Shown here piece after piece: positions 36,957 through 42,647 of a stretch of 64,000 nucleotides of DNA. How positions within the stretch are numbered: position 1 is the stretch's first letter; every line of letters begins with the position of its first letter. The position numbers and the translations under genes are program-made. The DNA is from a methanogenic archaeon mixed culture ISO4-G1 (GTDB taxonomy: Archaea; Thermoplasmatota; Thermoplasmata; Methanomassiliicoccales; Methanomethylophilaceae), in assembly GCA_001563305.1 (NCBI GenBank), contig CP013703.1, forward strand, positions 1,039,773 through 1,103,772. Reading direction: 5' to 3'. A model generated the notes under the pieces. The model was given only the letters and a program-made list of their open reading frames with translations. It made no database searches and had not been told where the DNA came from.

Positions 36957-37499
36957 TCAGTCCGGGAGATTGTCCCTGACGCTGTTTATCCTCTTGACGA
37001 CCTGGATGTACTTCTCGTGCTCGGCATCGGCGGCCTTCTTGCAATCGAGATACTGCTGGTGGCACTCCTGCGCCTCGTCCCTGAGCCTGTCGGCCTCCTC
37101 GAACATCTGATGCATCTTCTCGTGGAGAGCCTGACCGCTGGCGTTGCATTTCACCATCTTCTGATGGTATGTGTCGGCCATCTGCCTGGCGCCATTGATG
37201 TCACCTAACCCGCCACGCTCCTTCATCATCTTGGCCTTGTCGTTCCACTCGTCGCGCTTCTGCTTGGCCTCCCTTGCGGAAAGGTTGTAGTCGTCCCTCT
37301 GGTCCTTCATGGCCCTTGCCTCGGACGACAGCCTCCTGGCCTTCTCCTGCAGCTTATCGCGCTTCTCGGCCAGGACGTCGGCCTGCTGATGGAACCTGTC
37401 CCTCTCGGACTTGTGCTCGGCAGCCTCCTTGTTCAGCTGGTGCAGGATCTCGTCCAGGCTGCGGAGGTCCTGCTCGACGCTATCGGAAATCTCGCTCAT
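36957..37499 (-). CDS. coiled-coil protein (hypothetical)
   Basis: About 180 aa, highly charged with heptad-like K/E/R/D/Q composition. Start set at MSEISDS. Confidence 0.4.
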   Translation of the reverse strand: MSEISDSVEQDLRSLDEILHQLNKEAAEHKSERDRFHQQADVLAEKRDKLQEKARRLSSEARAMKDQRDDYNLSAREAKQKRDEWNDKAKMMKERGGLGDINGARQMADTYHQKMVKCNASGQALHEKMHQMFEEADRLRDEAQECHQQYLDCKKAADAEHEKYIQVVKRINSVRDNLPD

Positions 37500-37542
37500 G
37501 GGATACGAAAGGATAATGTGCAACGCGGATATATTGTAAGCG

Positions 37543-37779
37543 ATGACCAACGAGGCGTACCGCAAATGCAAGACCTGCAGATACTGCAACCACAAGGATG
37601 AGATGTGGGTGTGCGTCCTGACGTCGTCCAGCACCGGCCCCGAGTCCACATGCGAGAGGTACAGGCCGGGATGCTGCGAGAACTGCGGGAGCTATTCCGG
37701 AGGCGTGTGCAGGAGGAACGGCGAGGAGAAATACGAGCTGGACGTCTGCAGCGATTACGACCCTTCAGGTTCCCTCTGA
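37543..37779 (+). CDS. small cysteine-rich protein (78 aa, 10 Cys)
   Basis: CKTCRYC...WVC and CERYRPGCCENCG...GGVC clusters. Has its own upstream A/T box. Confidence 0.4.
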   Translation: MTNEAYRKCKTCRYCNHKDEMWVCVLTSSSTGPESTCERYRPGCCENCGSYSGGVCRRNGEEKYELDVCSDYDPSGSL

Positions 37780-38676
37780 CATCCTCTGCTTCCTGTTGGA
37801 GAGCATGTTCTTGACGCTCTTCTTCGCGGTGGAGCTCCCCATCACGACCTTCTTCGCCGAATCCGGGATCCCCATGTAGACTATGTTGTCGCATATCCCC
37901 GTGGAGCACCTCATCTGACCCCTGACCTTGGAATACGATTCCTGGAGGAGCCCTATCTCCCCGTTGAGCATGGATGTGATCTCGTACACGTGCTTCATCC
38001 TGAAGTCGCTGGCGTTGGTGTAACCGGTCTCCGGCAGGAGGGGGTTGTACGTCCCTTCCATGAAATCCTCGTCCAGATCGTCCACCACATCCATCAGGTA
38101 GACTACGGTGCTGAGGTGCCTGAACACATCATCCAGATCGTCGCTGGCGTGCTCCCCGGCGATATCCCTGAGCGCCCCGATCAGGCCCTCCCCGAACGTC
38201 CTGCCCATGAGGACCGCATCCTTGCATCCCTGCTGTTCCAGATCGCGGAGGTTCGAGAATCCATCCCCCACCATCCTATCGTATTCCGGGAACTGCTCCA
38301 CGGCCTTCTCTATAGCCTTGGCCAAGGTCACGGATGCCAGCTTGGACTTGACCGAGGGCTTGTCGCTCTCGTCGTCCTGGAGCTCCCATTTGGTCAGGAT
38401 CAGTGTGTAGGCGGCCATCTTCCTCATGAGGTCGGAATCCGCCTTCGGCCTGTCCAGGACGCATAACCTGCTCTTCGTCCCTTCGAAATCCAATACGTCC
38501 CCCGCGATGCTGTTGAGGAGGATCGTGTTGAACGTCATGTCGTAGTTGACCGTCAGAGTGCTCGCGACCCCGAAACCGTCCCTGAGATGATGGCAGCCCT
38601 CGCAGTAGTACCTGCGGTAGACCTTGTTGTCCGCAGGGGAGAGCCTGTTGTAGTACGGCAGGGTGTAGCCGAGCAT
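37765..38676 (-). CDS. hypothetical protein with N-terminal Y-Y-C-E-G-C-H-H motif (303 aa)
   Basis: Intact ORF, divergent from the Cys-rich peptide/rSAM pair. No family assigned from sequence alone. Confidence 0.45.
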   Translation of the reverse strand: MLGYTLPYYNRLSPADNKVYRRYYCEGCHHLRDGFGVASTLTVNYDMTFNTILLNSIAGDVLDFEGTKSRLCVLDRPKADSDLMRKMAAYTLILTKWELQDDESDKPSVKSKLASVTLAKAIEKAVEQFPEYDRMVGDGFSNLRDLEQQGCKDAVLMGRTFGEGLIGALRDIAGEHASDDLDDVFRHLSTVVYLMDVVDDLDEDFMEGTYNPLLPETGYTNASDFRMKHVYEITSMLNGEIGLLQESYSKVRGQMRCSTGICDNIVYMGIPDSAKKVVMGSSTAKKSVKNMLSNRKQRMSEGT

Positions 38677-38814
38677 AAGCAGACATCAATCACGGACGAT
38701 TAATGGTTTCCCATCCAGTAACCGGAAAAACCAGGTCTTTGCCAACCGCCAATGATTATATAATAAGAAATTATTTGACGGAATATCAGACCCCCGCTGA
38801 TAAGGTGAATTTCA

Positions 38815-39123
38815 ATGTCCTACGATGCAGAATCCGTCGACAAACTGACCGCACTGTATGTGAGCCAATCTCCCAACGCTTTCATCGCATTCTCCATGGA
38901 GGGGCTCCCGCAGGACAACCAGCACGCAGAGCGCTTCGACAAGGGAGCCGATGCGGAGCACAGCGAACTCACCTCATGCGACTACTGCTGCTGCAACGAC
39001 AAGGGATACTGCAACAGCTGGGGATGGCACCTCTGCGTCATCGGAACCGTCGTGGTCCTCGTGGCGTGCTGCTGCTACGCCACCGATGGATTCTTCGGCG
39101 TCTGGCCCTACTGGCCCTTCTGA
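38815..39123 (+). CDS. Cys-rich peptide (102 aa; candidate RiPP precursor or membrane-anchored Cys-rich peptide)
   Basis: N-terminal about 50 aa is leader-like. The C-terminal SCDYCCCNDKGYCNSWGWHLCVIGTVVVLVACCCYATDGFFGVWPYWPF has 9 Cys including two CCC triplets. It sits 48 bp upstream of a radical SAM/SPASM gene. Confidence 0.45.
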   Translation: MSYDAESVDKLTALYVSQSPNAFIAFSMEGLPQDNQHAERFDKGADAEHSELTSCDYCCCNDKGYCNSWGWHLCVIGTVVVLVACCCYATDGFFGVWPYWPF

Positions 39124-39171
39124 TCCGTCTGAAGTCCGTTCCTTTGCATCGTGGGACGGACCAGGGTTATC

Positions 39172-40296
39172 ATGAAGCCTCATATCACCATCGTCATCAA
39201 ACCGACATTATTCTGCAACACCGATTGCAAGCACTGTTACCACCCTCCCGAGGAGAGGGTCAAAGGGGACATCCCGCTGGAAAGGGTGGAGAAGATCATA
39301 AGGCTCGCCTCGCAGGAGTATCAGAGCGCCTGGTTCATCTGGCATGGAGGGGAGCCCATGACGCTGCCGATGTCGTTCTACAAGGAGGTCATCGGCCTCG
39401 AGGAGAAGTACTTCGGCAAGGACTCCATGAGATACGGGAACACCATCAACACCAACGGCACCCTTCTCAACAGGAGATTCATGGCGTACTGCCGTGAGAA
39501 GAAGATCAACATAGGCGTCTCTTACGAGGGGCCCTACAACGGCATCCTCAGGGCGGAGAATCTGGAGAAGACCTTGGGGACGCTCTCCGCCAAGGAGAAC
39601 ATGTATTCCGTCAGCGCCACCATCTCCAAGGAGACCGCATCGAAGCAGGCGGAGATATATAGGTACTTCAGGGACAAGGACATCGCGACGACGTTCGCCC
39701 CGGTCATCGGTGCAGGCTGCGGGAAGCCTTACGTACCGGACACGGAGGAGTTCGTCAAAGGGAGCATAGAGGCCTTCGACGAGTGGCTATACGACAACAA
39801 GGCTAGGGTCCCCCTCATGCCGTTCTACCAGTACATCAGGAACTATCTCGGGGAGCCCATACCCTCCGACTGTGCCCACACGTCCTGCCTGACCAAATGG
39901 ATCTGCCTGTACCCTGACGGTTCGCTGTATCCGTGCTCCAAGGCATGTCCCAAGGAATTCCTCATGGGGAACATCGATTCCGTCTCCTCGATAGACGAGG
40001 CATTCCAGTCCGAGGGCTTCAGGAACATCCTCATCGGCTCGATAAAGAGGCGCGAGAGATGTGCCAGCTGTGAGATATTCAAGTTCTGCAACGGAGGATG
40101 CAGCATAGATGCATGCTACGAGAACGGGCTCGAGGAGAATGGAGGCGCATCCTGCGAATCTTACAAGGCGATCTTCTCGCACGTCGTCGGCGAGATCCAG
40201 AGGATACTCGACGAGAAACCCGATATGGATGTTTATAACCCCTTTGTGAAGGATGCGGTCATCAACAAGCTGATCAATCCGAAGACCGTCGGATGA
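39172..40296 (+). CDS. radical SAM enzyme with SPASM domain (anSME / peptide-maturase-like)
   Basis: CNTDCKHC (Cx3Cx2C) at the N-terminus and C-terminal auxiliary-cluster cysteines (CxxCxxxxxCxxxC: CASCEIFKFCNGGCSIDAC; plus CSKAC). Confidence 0.8.
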   Translation: MKPHITIVIKPTLFCNTDCKHCYHPPEERVKGDIPLERVEKIIRLASQEYQSAWFIWHGGEPMTLPMSFYKEVIGLEEKYFGKDSMRYGNTINTNGTLLNRRFMAYCREKKINIGVSYEGPYNGILRAENLEKTLGTLSAKENMYSVSATISKETASKQAEIYRYFRDKDIATTFAPVIGAGCGKPYVPDTEEFVKGSIEAFDEWLYDNKARVPLMPFYQYIRNYLGEPIPSDCAHTSCLTKWICLYPDGSLYPCSKACPKEFLMGNIDSVSSIDEAFQSEGFRNILIGSIKRRERCASCEIFKFCNGGCSIDACYENGLEENGGASCESYKAIFSHVVGEIQRILDEKPDMDVYNPFVKDAVINKLINPKTVG

Positions 40297-41202
40297 TCAG
40301 TCGAAGATGCCCGTGCTCATGTACTTGTCCCCGCCATCAGGCAGGATTGCGAGTATGACCTTGTCAGGCCCCTCTTCCGCTTTTCTGAGGGCTGCGTACA
40401 CCGCCGCACCCGATGATATGCCGCAGAATATCCCCTCCTTCCTGGCCATCTCCACGGTCGTGGCTATCGCATCGTCGCCCTTCACAGCCACTACATCGGC
40501 CAGCAGGGACCTGTCGAATATGCTAGGAACGAAGTTCGCACCGATCCCCTGGATCTTGTGGGGGCCGGCCTTCCCTTCCGTCACCAGAGGGCTCTCGTAG
40601 GGCTCCACCCCTATGACCTTTGCCTTGGACCCGGCATCCCTGAAAGCCATCGCCAGACCGCAAGCGGTCCCTGCGGTCCCGAATCCAGCGAACACGTAAT
40701 CGACATCCGGGAGGTCGCGGAGTATCTCCTTGCCGGTCCCGACACGGTGTGCGACCGCGTTCATCGGGTTGTCGAACTGCCCGCATATCCATCCGCCGGT
40801 CTCCTTGGCGATCTCCTCCGCCTTCCTCACGGCCCCTCCCATGCCCTCGCTGCCCGGGGTCAGTACTATCTCGGCCCCATAAGCATGTATGGCCTGCCTC
40901 CTCTCAACGGACATTGTGTCAGGCATGACGATTATGGCCCTGTAACCGCGGACGGCGGAGATCATCGCTATCGCGATACCGGTGTTGCCCGAAGTGGGCT
41001 CCACTATAGTTCCGCCCTCCTTCAGTATGCCCCTCGCCACGGCATCCTCTATCATCGAGAGCACCGCACGGTCCTTGATGGATCCACCGGGATTCCCGCG
41101 CTCCGGTTTGACATAGACCTTCGAACCCTCCTTGGGAAGGCGGTTCAGACGGACTATGGGCGTCTCTCCGATCGTTTCGATGATGCTGTCGTATATGGGC
41201 AT
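40297..41202 (-). CDS. cysK: cysteine synthase (O-acetylserine sulfhydrylase), PLP-dependent
   Basis: PLP-lysine context GGSIKDR, GNTG loop, about 301 aa. Start at internal MPIYDS. Confidence 0.8.
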   Translation of the reverse strand: MPIYDSIIETIGETPIVRLNRLPKEGSKVYVKPERGNPGGSIKDRAVLSMIEDAVARGILKEGGTIVEPTSGNTGIAIAMISAVRGYRAIIVMPDTMSVERRQAIHAYGAEIVLTPGSEGMGGAVRKAEEIAKETGGWICGQFDNPMNAVAHRVGTGKEILRDLPDVDYVFAGFGTAGTACGLAMAFRDAGSKAKVIGVEPYESPLVTEGKAGPHKIQGIGANFVPSIFDRSLLADVVAVKGDDAIATTVEMARKEGIFCGISSGAAVYAALRKAEEGPDKVILAILPDGGDKYMSTGIFD

Positions 41203-41284
41203 GCGGGGAAAATCGCGCGGACCCGTAATTAATGTATCGGACACCGACCAAACGCTAAAATTCTGGTCCCTGTTAACGGGCATC

Positions 41285-42647
41285 ATGGAGTACTCGGCAT
41301 CGGAGGTCAGGGCGGTTCAGCTTGCATGCTACGTCTCGGCGTTCATCACGCCCCTGCTGAGTACCATGATGAACCTCTCGCTGATCAACATCGGAGAGGA
41401 CTTCGATGTGGGATCCCACGATCTGGCCTACATCAACTCTGCTTTCCTCCTGGCATCGGTCATATTCATGGTCCCGTTCGCCAAGCTCGCAGACATCGTC
41501 GGGAAGAAGAGACTGTTCGTTATAGGGCTGCTTCATCGCCTGCTTCGCACCGGTATTCTGGGTGGTCATCCTGGGAAGGGCGATCATAGGCGTAGGCGCC
41601 TCATCGCTGGCTATGGTCAGCATATCCATACTCACGGATGTGGTCCCGCCGGAGAGGAGAGGGACCGCCATCGGATATCAGACAATGTTCGTCTACATGG
41701 GACTATCCTTCGGACCCGCCCTCGGCGGAGCCCTGAACGACCTGGTCGGATGGAGGCTGCTGTTCCTGATCACCGTCCCGATGGCCGTAGCATCGACGAT
41801 CATCATTCTGACCGGATTCCACAAAGAGATCGCGGTCGACAAGGACGGGTCGTTCGACCTCAGGAACTCGGTGCTGTACGGAGCGGCGATGCTGCTCTCC
41901 ATGGGCGGTGTGATGAACCTCCCGGCGGTTTGGGCGGCAGTCTGCGTCGTTATCGGAATACTCCTGCTGGCACTGTTCGTGAGATCACAGATCAACAACA
42001 GCAGATGCCTCCTGAACATGGGACTGTTCAAGAACTGGACCTTCAGCGGGTCCTGCCTCGCCGCATTCATGAACTACGCCTCGTCGTTCTCGATATCCTT
42101 CTTCCTCGCGCTGTACCTGCAGAGCATCGGCGGGCTCACCGCCACTGAAGCAGGTCTGCTAATGATAGTCCAGCCCGTGGTCCAGTGCATATTCACCCCG
42201 TTCTTCGGCAAACTTACCGACAGGATTTCGAACAAGATCATACTCCCCACAGTGGGAATGATCCTCACGTCCATCTGCATCCTGACCTATGTGTTCTACA
42301 CCCTGGACACACCGAAATACGTCGTGGCCATGTCGATGGTAATCGGAGGTTTCGGATTCGCGATGTTCTCGGCTCCGAACAGCACCCTGATCATGTCCTC
42401 CGTCCCCAAGGAGCACTCCAGCGAGGCCTCCGCAGTACTGTCCGTCATGAGACAGACCGGGATGATGGTCAGCATGGGCATCGCCATGACATACATCACC
42501 GTGATCATGGGTTCCACCGACAATCTCGGTCCCGAGACCTACGGCCTGTTCCTTCAGGTCTTGGAGCTCTCCATGATCACCTGCTTCATCATGTGCATCA
42601 TCGGGACGATAGCCTCGATTTCCAGAGGCAAACCTAAACAATTTTAA
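41285..42647 (+). pseudogene. MFS transporter gene interrupted by a +1 frameshift near 41524-41528 (GGG run)
   Basis: Frame-2 ORF encodes TM1-3 up to ...KKRLFVIG. Frame 0 continues directly with GCFIACFAPVFWVVILGRAIIGVGASS... (MFS TM4/5). Deleting one G from 'ataggg' restores a single roughly 450-aa MFS protein. Confidence 0.5.

What the first reader, a model, noticed from the sequence alone, without database searches (positions are those of the whole stretch)
38815..39123. The 102-aa Cys-rich ORF has a hydrophobic stretch inside its Cys-rich half
The segment WHLCVIGTVVVLVACCCYATDGFFGVWPYWPF could be a transmembrane anchor. The product may therefore be a membrane-tethered Cys-rich peptide rather than a classic secreted RiPP core, for example a metal-binding or redox peptide that is still modified by the adjacent radical SAM enzyme. 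Both readings are unusual.
Basis: seen in the sequence. Interest (0 to 1): 0.6.

Follow-up and report, generated by a model that had tools for sequence, protein, structure and literature searches.

The report
Conserved archaeal radical-SAM peptide, hydrophobic Cys-rich core
The 102-residue open reading frame is a real, strongly conserved small gene found across the methanogen order Methanomassiliicoccales, always just upstream of a peptide-modifying radical SAM enzyme; its hydrophobic stretch is real and conserved but so rich in cysteine that a membrane anchor is plausible and unproven.

The parts
37543..37779 (+). Conserved Cys-rich 78-aa ORF (orf78). Motif: E.Y.KC.TCR.C.H...W.C...C.RYRPG.CE.C...C...L.VC..YDP.G. 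It converges on, and overlaps, the 3' end of the DUF5685 gene.
   Evidence: tblastn found it in most loci. An alignment of 58 distinct sequences shows 8-9 conserved Cys. It is retained in the most divergent locus, L092, at 42% identity. No Pfam, NCBIfam, PADLOC or PDB hit.
37765..38676 (-). DUF5685 protein, 303 aa, transcribed divergently from the peptide. The model has a trans-isoprenyl-diphosphate-synthase / prenyltransferase fold. It carries an invariant DDxxD (101-105), a second Asp-rich motif (D196, D199, D200, D204), and an invariant CxxCH plus further invariant Cys.
38755..38766 (+). TATA-like box ATTATATAATAA, about 50-60 nt upstream of the start codon.
   Evidence: Sequence. An AT-rich box (at least 9 of 10 A/T) is present upstream in 69 of 82 loci, mostly around -60.
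38784..38808 (+). 5'-UTR hairpin (TATCAG, 7-nt loop, CTGATA; 38784-38802) directly followed by the Shine-Dalgarno sequence GGTGA (38804-38808), 6 nt before the ATG.
   Evidence: An SD-like motif is present in 76 of 82 loci. A hairpin of differing sequence sits at the same position in most loci, but single-sequence z-scores are weak (mean -1.05).
38815..38976 (+). Peptide residues 1-54: acidic N-terminal region resembling a RiPP leader (net charge about -6). Y15, Q18 and S19 are invariant. Two short helices are predicted.
   Evidence: This region is replaced by an unrelated Lys-rich N-terminus in P0144 while the C-terminal half is kept.
38977..39012 (+). Peptide residues 55-66: Cys box C-x-Y-x-C-C-x-[DE]-x-G-x-C, with C55, C59, C60 and C66 invariant.
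   Evidence: Column counts in 81 sequences. This region has the lowest dN/dS in the gene, 0.10.
39031..39075 (+). Peptide residues 73-87: the conserved apolar block rich in Cys, Val and Gly. This is the candidate membrane segment and the subject of the finding.
   Evidence: KD 2.13. No polar or charged residues in 1215 aligned positions and 37% Cys. dN/dS 0.24. Predicted helix 69-92 with pLDDT about 75. 57 of 20,000 shuffles reach the observed value.
39076..39123 (+). Peptide residues 88-102 plus the TGA stop: near-invariant aromatic C-terminal tail Y-x-T-x-G-F-x-G-x-W-x-Y-W-P-F, with no Lys or Arg.
   Evidence: Y88, T90, G92, W100 and P101 are invariant. dN/dS 0.14. The orthologues end in ...WP[F/L] followed by a TGA stop, except L080 where the stop is missing.
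39134..39161 (+). Intercistronic RNA hairpin between the peptide stop and the radical SAM start: GTCCGTTCC, loop TTTGCATCGT, GGGACGGAC.
   Evidence: RNAalifold on 14 loci gives a 9-bp stem. Four pairs show compensatory changes, and the loop core GCAUCGU is invariant.
39172..40296 (+). Radical SAM/SPASM enzyme, 374 aa. It has no N-terminal RiPP-recognition extension, has the Cx3Cx2C motif, and keeps all eight auxiliary-cluster Cys.
   Evidence: Pfam Radical_SAM. NCBIfam SPASM TIGR04085 scores 40.6 bits, above its cutoff of 27. Best named hits are DynA and anaerobic sulfatase maturase at 148 bits each, both far below their cutoffs. PDB: anSME 4k36, E 1e-25, with the cluster Cys aligned.

Best explanation
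The ORF encodes a ribosomal substrate of the downstream radical SAM/SPASM enzyme. The two genes are co-transcribed as part of a vertically inherited four-gene module of Methanomassiliicoccales: the Cys-rich orf78, the prenyltransferase-fold DUF5685, the peptide, and the radical SAM enzyme. The proposed mechanism follows; every step is inferred unless marked as shown. The acidic N-terminal region, with its Y-x-x-Q-S-P motif, docks the peptide on the cytoplasmic enzyme. The enzyme installs one or more cross-links in the conserved C-terminal half. The most likely chemistry is an aromatic-to-C-beta (cyclophane-type) link in the invariant Y88-x-T90 / W97-x-Y99 tail, or a Cys thioether. Because no protease or exporter is conserved with it, the product probably stays as a small protein. 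It would insert post-translationally, tail-anchor fashion, through the apolar block 73-87. That places the N-terminal region and Cys box in the cytoplasm and the 15-residue aromatic tail outside. DUF5685 may add an isoprenoid to a Trp or Cys. Shown: the gene is real and constrained; the gene coupling; the conserved hydrophobicity; the enzyme class. Inferred: substrate status, type of cross-link, membrane insertion, topology and prenylation.
For: The gene is real: about 80 distinct orthologues, pS 0.61 against pN 0.25, dN/dS 0.23. Promoter and ribosome-binding signals are present. Coupling: the radical SAM gene lies 1-53 nt downstream on the same strand, in 165 of 166 loci, and the exception is a frameshifted copy. 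All 7 radical SAM orthologues sampled have the peptide upstream. The arrangement is kept even in the most divergent member, L092. Enzyme class: full SPASM domain with both auxiliary clusters. Its nearest named families are peptide cross-linkers that lack an RRE domain, plus anSME. Hydrophobic block: KD 1.60-2.47 in all orthologues, no polar residue in 1215 positions, sequence variable but hydrophobicity fixed, predicted helix 69-92. Low-entropy positions 77, 80/81, 84 and 87/88 recur about every 3.5 residues. Tail-anchor geometry: the KD maximum in residues 1-54 is only 0.68. The block ends 15 residues from the C-terminus. K/R is common at position 63 on the N side, and there is no K/R in the tail. 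No protease or transporter is in the conserved module. The single-copy, syntenic distribution across at least 90 species genomes is unlike strain-variable bacteriocin clusters.
Against: The apolar core is short (15-17 residues), and the rough Hessa sum is borderline (+0.75 kcal/mol for 19 residues). Its 37% Cys and low Leu, Ile and Phe content is unlike normal membrane helices in the same window, which have 1.6% Cys. The AlphaFold2 model has low overall confidence (pLDDT 55.5). The bipartite pattern, with the N-terminus replaceable in P0144, and the intercistronic hairpin are just what a classical leader-core RiPP precursor would show. The radical SAM enzyme scores far below every curated family cutoff, so the chemistry cannot be read from homology. 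There are no expression, mass-spectrometry or localisation data. The link to DUF5685 and orf78 rests on synteny within one order, which could be inherited gene order rather than function. In 6 of 139 loci DUF5685 was not found within the upstream sequence held, 1.5-5 kb.
Confidence: 0.45

Rival explanations
1. Classical RiPP precursor. Residues 1 to about 54 are a leader that a generic protease removes. The Cys box, apolar block and aromatic tail form a hydrophobic core peptide, cross-linked by the radical SAM enzyme, for example into a sactipeptide- or ranthipeptide-like hairpin or a cyclophane. The core is then released as a membrane-active or signalling peptide. On this reading the hydrophobic stretch is part of the product, not an anchor.
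For: Leader-like and core-like conservation split: the N-terminus is swapped in P0144 while the core is kept. Cys donors sit upstream and conserved Thr, Phe, Trp and Tyr acceptors sit downstream. The intercistronic hairpin is the kind that raises precursor-to-enzyme mRNA ratios. The enzyme belongs to the SPASM peptide-maturase superfamily. The block's composition is atypical for a membrane helix.
Against: No protease, exporter or immunity gene is conserved with it. The family is single-copy, syntenic and order-wide, with purifying selection on the 'leader' too (dN/dS 0.25). That differs from patchy, fast-evolving antimicrobial clusters, although SCIFF peptides in Clostridia are a precedent for class-wide conservation (from my own knowledge). 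The enzyme has no RRE domain.
Confidence: 0.3
2. Metal- or Fe-S-binding or redox small protein. The Cys box and the CCC motif ligate a metal cluster. The apolar block is buried in an oligomer or embedded at the membrane. The neighbouring radical SAM enzyme uses it as a partner (cluster or sulfur donor, or electron carrier) rather than as a substrate.
For: Five invariant Cys (55, 59, 60, 66, 86) and up to 14 Cys in total. A second Cys-rich small protein, orf78, is in the module. Cys and Met biosynthesis genes are adjacent in many loci.
Against: The Cys within the apolar block exchange freely with Val and Leu, so most are not ligands. If the block spans a membrane, the invariant Cys lie on opposite sides of it. 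No similarity to any known metal-binding family. The near-invariant aromatic C-terminal tail is unexplained by this reading. SPASM enzymes next to small ORFs are, as far as known, peptide modifiers (established knowledge of the family).
Confidence: 0.12
3. Spurious ORF, or a chance hydrophobic run in GC-rich DNA.
For: Gene callers skipped it in some contigs (L006 and L088). It has no database annotation.
Against: dN/dS 0.23 with near-saturated synonymous sites. About 80 intact orthologues, nearly all with a TGA stop immediately after the terminal WP[F/L] (L080 is the exception). Conserved SD and TATA signals. 57 of 20,000 shuffles reach the observed hydrophobicity.
Confidence: 0.01

Closest known systems
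Triceptide (three-residue cyclophane) and daropeptide systems: XyeA/XyeB, GrrA/GrrM-OscB, ChlB, DynA (dynobactin), DarE (darobactin)
   Same: A small precursor lies directly upstream of an anSME-like radical SAM/SPASM enzyme that has no RRE domain. The best NCBIfam hits are DynA (148 bits), GrrM/OscB, AmcB, DarW/DarE, YhhB and XyeB. The triceptide synthase ChlB is among only four PDB sequence hits (PMC11499958). The peptide tail has invariant-variable-invariant triplets starting with an aromatic residue (Y88-x-T90, W97-x-Y99), like the aromatic-X2-X3 motifs described in PMC11499958.
   Different: Every score is far below the family cutoffs (148 against 450 for DynA; 38-93 against 310-450 for the cyclophane families). 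The hosts are archaea, and the module is an order-wide syntenic gene set. The precursor carries a Cys box and a 15-residue apolar, Cys-rich block that those precursors lack. No cross-link has been demonstrated.
Anaerobic sulfatase-maturating enzyme (anSME; PDB 4k36)
   Same: It is the closest solved structure by sequence (E 1e-25). The match is full-length, with Cx3Cx2C and all eight auxiliary-cluster Cys conserved. It has the same size and no N-terminal extension.
   Different: 148 bits against a cutoff of 349. The peptide has no C/S-x-P/A-x-R sulfatase motif. The enzyme is tied to a dedicated small ORF rather than to sulfatases.
SCIFF peptides with the ScfB maturase (ranthipeptides) of Clostridia
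   Same: A Cys-rich small peptide paired with a SPASM maturase. It is conserved vertically across a whole higher taxon rather than patchily, and no dedicated protease or exporter is required in the core pair (from my own knowledge of the family).
   Different: The ScfB model scores only 39 bits against a cutoff of 425. SCIFF peptides are about 45 aa, soluble, and lack an apolar block or an aromatic C-terminus.
Tail-anchored membrane proteins (single C-terminal membrane helix, post-translational insertion; PMC10248533, PMC6593721)
   Same: One hydrophobic segment close to the C-terminus, no signal peptide, and a cytoplasm-like acidic N-terminal region. Post-translational insertion would leave time for a cytoplasmic radical SAM enzyme to act first.
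   Different: The hydrophobic segment is short and 37% Cys. Insertion has not been demonstrated. I know of no tail-anchored protein that is a radical SAM substrate.
ComX/ComQ (Bacillus): a ribosomal peptide prenylated on Trp by a polyprenyl-synthase-fold enzyme (from my own knowledge)
   Same: A protein with a trans-IPPS fold and Asp-rich motifs (DUF5685) is encoded next to a small peptide whose conserved C-terminal end contains Trp.
   Different: DUF5685 is not a Pfam polyprenyl_synt member. It is transcribed divergently, and its linkage is inferred from synteny only. ComX systems have no radical SAM enzyme. Prenylation is untested.
Peptide-derived cofactor systems: PqqA/PqqE, MftA/MftC, QhpC/QhpD
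   Same: A small peptide plus a SPASM enzyme. These systems are housekeeping-like and vertically conserved, and the peptide's extreme C-terminus matters (as in MftA). The QhpD and MftC models give weak hits.
   Different: The scores are very low (37-38 bits). The accompanying genes of those pathways (PqqB-D, MftB/D/E/F, QhpE-G) are absent.

Membership tests
Radical SAM/SPASM peptide-maturase system (RiPP-like precursor plus maturase) | Enzyme has the Cx3Cx2C radical SAM motif and a SPASM domain with auxiliary-cluster cysteines | tested here: met
   Pfam Radical_SAM 41 bits, above its cutoff of 29.5. TIGR04085 SPASM 40.6 bits, above its cutoff of 27. All cluster Cys align with anSME 4k36.
Radical SAM/SPASM peptide-maturase system (RiPP-like precursor plus maturase) | A small ORF sits adjacent to and co-oriented with the maturase, and the pairing is conserved | tested here: met
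   165 of 166 loci, with the exception a frameshifted radical SAM gene. 7 of 7 when starting from the enzyme.
Radical SAM/SPASM peptide-maturase system (RiPP-like precursor plus maturase) | Leader/core organisation of the precursor | tested here: inconclusive
   The N-terminus is replaceable in P0144 while the C-terminal half is kept. However, the N-terminus is itself well conserved (dN/dS 0.25), and no cleavage motif was identified.
Radical SAM/SPASM peptide-maturase system (RiPP-like precursor plus maturase) | Leader peptidase and/or exporter in the cluster | tested here: not met
   None among the genes conserved with the pair.
Radical SAM/SPASM peptide-maturase system (RiPP-like precursor plus maturase) | Covalent modification of the peptide by the enzyme | not testable with these tools
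   Needs co-expression and mass spectrometry.
Triceptides / 3-residue cyclophane-forming enzymes | Maturase scores above the family model cutoff (XyeB, GrrM/OscB, YhhB, AmcB) | tested here: not met
   38-93 bits against cutoffs of 310-450.
Triceptides / 3-residue cyclophane-forming enzymes | Aromatic-X2-X3 motifs in the core (PMC11499958) | tested here: inconclusive
   Y88-x-T90 and W97-x-Y99 fit the pattern, but this is not specific and no cross-link is shown.
Daropeptides (DarE, DynA) | Maturase above the equivalog cutoff | tested here: not met
   DynA 148 bits against 450. DarE 71 bits against 650.
Anaerobic sulfatase maturase | Score above the TIGR03942 cutoff, and a C/S-x-P/A-x-R substrate motif | tested here: not met
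   148 bits against 349. The motif is absent from the peptide sequence.
SCIFF / ranthipeptide | ScfB-type maturase (TIGR03974) | tested here: not met
   39 bits against 425.
Tail-anchored membrane protein | A single hydrophobic segment near the C-terminus and no N-terminal signal sequence | tested here: met
   The only KD peak above 1.6 is at residues 68-80 onward. The maximum in residues 1-54 is 0.68. The block ends 15 residues before the C-terminus.
Tail-anchored membrane protein | The segment is long and hydrophobic enough to span a membrane | tested here: inconclusive
   KD says yes (2.13). The rough Hessa sum is +0.75 for 19 residues and -1.6 for 17 (scale values from memory). Composition is atypical, 37% Cys against 1.6%.
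Tail-anchored membrane protein | Membrane localisation | not testable with these tools
   Needs fractionation or proteomics.
ComQ-like peptide prenyltransferase partner | Trans-IPPS fold with Asp-rich motifs | tested here: met
   [not shown]
ComQ-like peptide prenyltransferase partner | Sequence membership of the polyprenyl_synt family, and demonstrated peptide prenylation | tested here: not met
   Only PF18937 (DUF5685) is hit. About 10% identity to the structural neighbours. Prenylation is untestable here.

The most novel reading that the evidence does not exclude
The module makes a new kind of membrane-resident, peptide-derived redox or lipidated factor specific to Methanomassiliicoccales. 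In this reading a tail-anchored small protein has its Cys/Trp/Tyr-rich segments cross-linked by the radical SAM enzyme and prenylated by the IPPS-fold DUF5685, possibly with orf78 as an Fe-S partner. It would serve a core physiological role, for example in membrane electron transfer. These methanogens lack cytochromes and HdrE, and the Fpo-like complex is only assumed to contact HdrD directly (PMC7374477).
Probability: 0.06. Interest if true: 0.9.

Novelty: new variant of a known kind. Interest (0 to 1): 0.6.

Why it matters
Methanomassiliicoccales are major gut and rumen methylotrophic methanogens with few cultured strains. A four-gene module kept in at least 90 species genomes, with a strongly constrained substrate peptide, points to a conserved physiological function rather than an accessory antibiotic. 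If the product is a radical-SAM-modified, membrane-embedded small protein, that would extend RiPP-type chemistry to membrane proteins in archaea. It would also give a lineage-specific marker and a possible target. The enzyme sits outside every curated radical SAM/SPASM family, so its chemistry is likely to be informative. The peptide is also missed by gene callers in some assemblies, so the family is under-annotated.

Tried and rejected
- **Peptide against known families.** Pfam, NCBIfam, PADLOC and PDB sequence searches found nothing significant. The only hits were DUF7144 at E 0.064 (13.8 bits against a cutoff of 27) and C5a anaphylatoxin at E about 1. I treat both as noise.
- **Profile search of 1.84 billion representative proteins.** It found only five true family clusters. 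The three longer hits (P0145-P0147) are Cys/Asp-rich repeat proteins and were not pursued.
- **AlphaFold2 of the peptide.** Confidence was too low (pLDDT 55.5) for a fold search, so none was run.
- **afdb50 fold library for DUF5685.** It was not available.
- **Bacterial DUF5685 contexts.** I could not test whether bacterial DUF5685 genes also sit beside radical SAM/peptide pairs.
- **Literature.** Searches for DUF5685, TIGR04083, and Methanomassiliicoccales with radical SAM, peptide or ranthipeptide found no description of this module.
- **5'-UTR hairpin.** It is positionally recurrent, but single-sequence folding z-scores are weak (mean -1.05). I list it as noticed, not as established.
- **Outer-membrane beta-signal or BamA-mimic idea for the C-terminal ...YWPF.** Considered from memory and dropped. 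The spacing does not fit the motif, and it was not tested.
- **'Bacterial' record titles among the loci** (Lachnospiraceae, Bacteroides and others). I regard these as mis-binned archaeal contigs, because their gene content is that of the archaeal module.

Full report
**1. Observation**

Window 38815..39123 (+) is an ATG-to-TGA ORF of 102 codons with the quoted sequence. All nine Cys lie in residues 55-87. The quoted 32-residue string is residues 71-102, but only residues 73-87 (LCVIGTVVVLVACCC) are strictly apolar. The remainder (YATDGFFGVWPYWPF) is an aromatic and Gly-rich tail. The Kyte-Doolittle 19-residue maximum is 2.13 at residues 72-90, above the classical 1.6 threshold. Shuffles of the same 102 residues reach 2.13 in 57 of 20,000 trials. 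No N-terminal hydrophobic segment exists; the maximum in residues 1-54 is 0.68.

**2. The gene is real**

- A word-indexed search of 5.8 billion proteins gave 19 clusters of 98-103 aa at 56-87% identity, all unannotated, from Thermoplasmata and Methanomethylophilaceae assemblies.
- A profile search of 1.84 billion representatives found only five true family clusters.
- A pattern scan of one genome per GTDB species found 90 genomes encoding a relative. A metagenome scan found 117 more stretches.
- From the first 87 loci plus the window I extracted 82 distinct sequences. They end in ...WP(F/L) followed by a TGA stop, except L080, where the stop is missing.
- Codon analysis on 81 of them gave pS 0.61, pN 0.25 and dN/dS 0.23. 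The strongest constraint is on the Cys box (0.10) and the C-terminal tail (0.14). The apolar block scores 0.24.
- Upstream there is a TATA-like box at about -60 in 69 of 82 loci, and an (A)GGTGA Shine-Dalgarno motif in 76 of 82.
- Overlapping ORFs in other frames are therefore spurious.

**3. Anatomy of the family**

- **(a) Residues 1-54.** Acidic (mean net charge -6), with Y15, Q18 and S19 invariant and two short predicted helices.
- **(b) Cys box.** C55-x-Y-x-C59-C60-x-[DE]-x-G64-x-C66.
- **(c) Aromatic junction.** A short W/Y-H/Y junction at residues 71-72.
- **(d) Apolar block 73-87.**
  - Its sequence varies but its chemistry does not. Among 1215 aligned residues there is no D, E, K, R, N, Q or H.
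  - The composition is C 37%, V 22%, G 13%, A 11%, L 7% and I 6.5%.
  - Several columns swap between Cys and Val or Leu.
- **(e) C-terminal motif.** C86-C87-Y88-x-T90-x-G92-F93-x-G95-x-W97-x-Y99-W100-P101-F102 at the C-terminus, with no Lys or Arg.

One divergent member, P0144, has an unrelated Lys-rich N-terminus but retains parts (b) to (e). The C-terminal half therefore defines the family.

**4. Genomic context**

- In the loci of the first scan, the peptide stop lies 1-53 nt before a radical SAM/SPASM gene on the same strand.
- Over all loci with at least 400 nt downstream, 165 of 166 have that gene directly after the peptide. The exception, L124, is a frameshifted copy.
- Going the other way, all seven radical SAM orthologues of 54-63% identity that I looked up have the peptide ORF upstream. 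In two cases the gene caller had missed it.
- A divergent DUF5685 gene lies upstream in 133 of 139 loci with at least 1.3 kb of upstream sequence. In some loci 1-2 kb is inserted between it and the peptide.
- Beyond DUF5685 lies a convergent 78-aa ORF with 8-9 conserved Cys.
- The same four-gene arrangement is kept in the locus of P0144, where the enzymes are 53-54% identical to those of the window.
- No protease or transporter is consistently present.
- Flanking genes vary. They include cysteine synthase-like PALP, HTS, RidA, CobA and MFS genes.

**5. The enzymes**

The radical SAM protein (374 aa) starts its core domain at about residue 9, so it has no RRE-type extension.
- It has CNTDCKHC (Cx3Cx2C), and all eight auxiliary-cluster Cys align with anSME.
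- Its best curated matches are DynA (148 bits, cutoff 450), anaerobic sulfatase maturase (148, cutoff 349) and TIGR04083 (111, cutoff 300). After those come cyclophane, daropeptide and thioether maturases. All are far below their cutoffs.
- Its PDB sequence hits are anSME, CteB and the triceptide synthase ChlB (PMC11499958).
- It is thus an unclassified member of the anSME-like peptide-modifying SPASM group. Its chemistry cannot be assigned from homology.

DUF5685 modelled with pLDDT 81.5.
- Its structural neighbours are exclusively terpenoid-synthase-fold proteins.
- It has an invariant DDxxD at 101-105, a second Asp-rich motif at 196-204, and an invariant CxxCH plus further invariant Cys.
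- It is plausibly an isoprenoid-diphosphate-using enzyme. Its connection to the peptide rests on synteny alone.

**6. Is the apolar block a membrane anchor?**

For:
- Hydrophobicity is conserved while the sequence drifts.
- AlphaFold2 predicts a helix at 69-92, although the model is poor overall (pLDDT 55.5).
- Aromatic residues sit at both ends (W71/Y-H72 and Y88).
- Low-entropy positions at 77, 80/81, 84 and 87/88 recur about every 3.5 residues.
- The position is near the C-terminus and there is no signal peptide.
- K/R at position 63 lies on the N side and there is none in the tail.
- The module has no export or processing genes.
- Tail-anchored proteins are inserted post-translationally (PMC10248533, PMC6593721). 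That would allow a cytoplasmic radical SAM enzyme to modify even the future external tail first.

Against:
- The apolar core is only 15-17 residues long.
- A rough sum on the Hessa biological scale (values from memory) is +0.75 kcal/mol for the best 19-mer and -1.6 for the best 17-mer in the window. The family means are +0.74 and -0.82. That is borderline.
- The 37% Cys contrasts with 1.6% Cys in 488 residues of ordinary membrane-like segments in five proteins of the same window.

The stretch is therefore not an ordinary anchor. It could equally be a hydrophobic RiPP core or a thiol-rich functional element.

**7. Mechanism**

My best reading, at 0.45, is a radical-SAM-modified small protein that remains membrane-embedded in tail-anchor topology.
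- The cross-link or cross-links would lie in the invariant aromatic tail, on cyclophane-type Y-x-T or W-x-Y motifs, or would involve the invariant Cys.
- Lipidation by DUF5685 is possible.

The rivals are:
- a classical cleaved hydrophobic RiPP (0.30);
- a metal or redox partner protein (0.12);
- an artefact (0.01, refuted).

Which parts are shown and which inferred is set out in the Best explanation section.

**8. RNA features seen on the way**

A hairpin lies between the peptide stop and the radical SAM start (window 39134-39161). In the 14 loci with a 45-53 nt spacer it has a 9-bp stem. Four pairs show compensatory changes, and the loop core GCAUCGU is invariant. Clades with a 12-18 nt spacer carry a short GC hairpin instead. 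This would fit differential expression of peptide and enzyme.

A second hairpin sits just 5' of the Shine-Dalgarno sequence in most loci, with lineage-specific sequences. Statistical support is weak.

**9. Novelty**

No Pfam, NCBIfam or PADLOC family covers the peptide or orf78. The literature searches found no description of the module.

It is a new variant of the known precursor-plus-SPASM-maturase kind. What sets it apart:
- order-wide vertical conservation in an archaeal lineage;
- a Cys-dense apolar block;
- an invariant aromatic C-terminus;
- association with a prenyltransferase-fold DUF and a second Cys-rich small protein.

A role in membrane electron transfer is speculative (about 6%). 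The context is that these methanogens lack cytochromes and HdrE (PMC7374477).

Noticed in passing
window 39134-39161: Intercistronic hairpin between the peptide stop and the radical SAM start. In 14 related loci it has a 9-bp stem, 4 pairs with compensatory changes and an invariant GCAUCGU loop core. Clades with a 12-18 nt spacer carry a short GCCGGC-GGAA-GCCGGC-type hairpin instead.
   Followed up: partly
window 38784-38802: Hairpin (TATCAG / CTGATA) immediately 5' of the Shine-Dalgarno sequence of the peptide gene. Other lineages have a different stem sequence at the same position (for example TACCGA..TCGGTA and CCTATCC..GGATAGG). Folding z-scores are weak, mean -1.05.
   Followed up: partly
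window 37543-37779 (+): A 78-aa ORF with 8-9 conserved Cys (CxxCxxC...C...C...CxxC...C...C), conserved with the module and overlapping the 3' end of DUF5685 convergently. It has no hit in any family or structure library. It could be an Fe-S or Zn protein, or a second substrate.
   Followed up: partly
[not shown]
   Followed up: yes
window 40297-41286 (-) and related loci: Cys and Met metabolism genes converge on the 3' end of the radical SAM gene in many loci. They include a PALP cysteine-synthase-like gene and, in relatives, HTS homoserine acyltransferase and RidA. This may be inherited gene order, or a link to the supply of Cys or SAM.
   Followed up: no
L006 4694-4999; L088 2693-2989: The peptide ORF was not called by the gene predictors in these public contigs although it is intact. 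The family is under-annotated.
   Followed up: yes
L080 (Methanomassiliicoccaceae archaeon COG_1); L124: In L080 the stop codon after ...YWPF is missing and the ORF reads on to 198 aa. In L124 the radical SAM gene is split by a frameshift. These are either assembly errors or rare decay of the module.
   Followed up: no
L018, L028-L030, L040, L044, L047, L048, L052, L083: Contigs carrying the archaeal module are filed under bacterial bin names (Lachnospiraceae, Bifidobacteriaceae, Bacteroides, Prevotella, Dialister, Eggerthellaceae) in the species-representative collection. They are most likely mis-binned.
   Followed up: partly
window 36960-37649 (-): A 230-aa coiled-coil protein matching the archaeal DUF7121 and DUF7491 lies next to the module. 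Its function is unknown.
   Followed up: no
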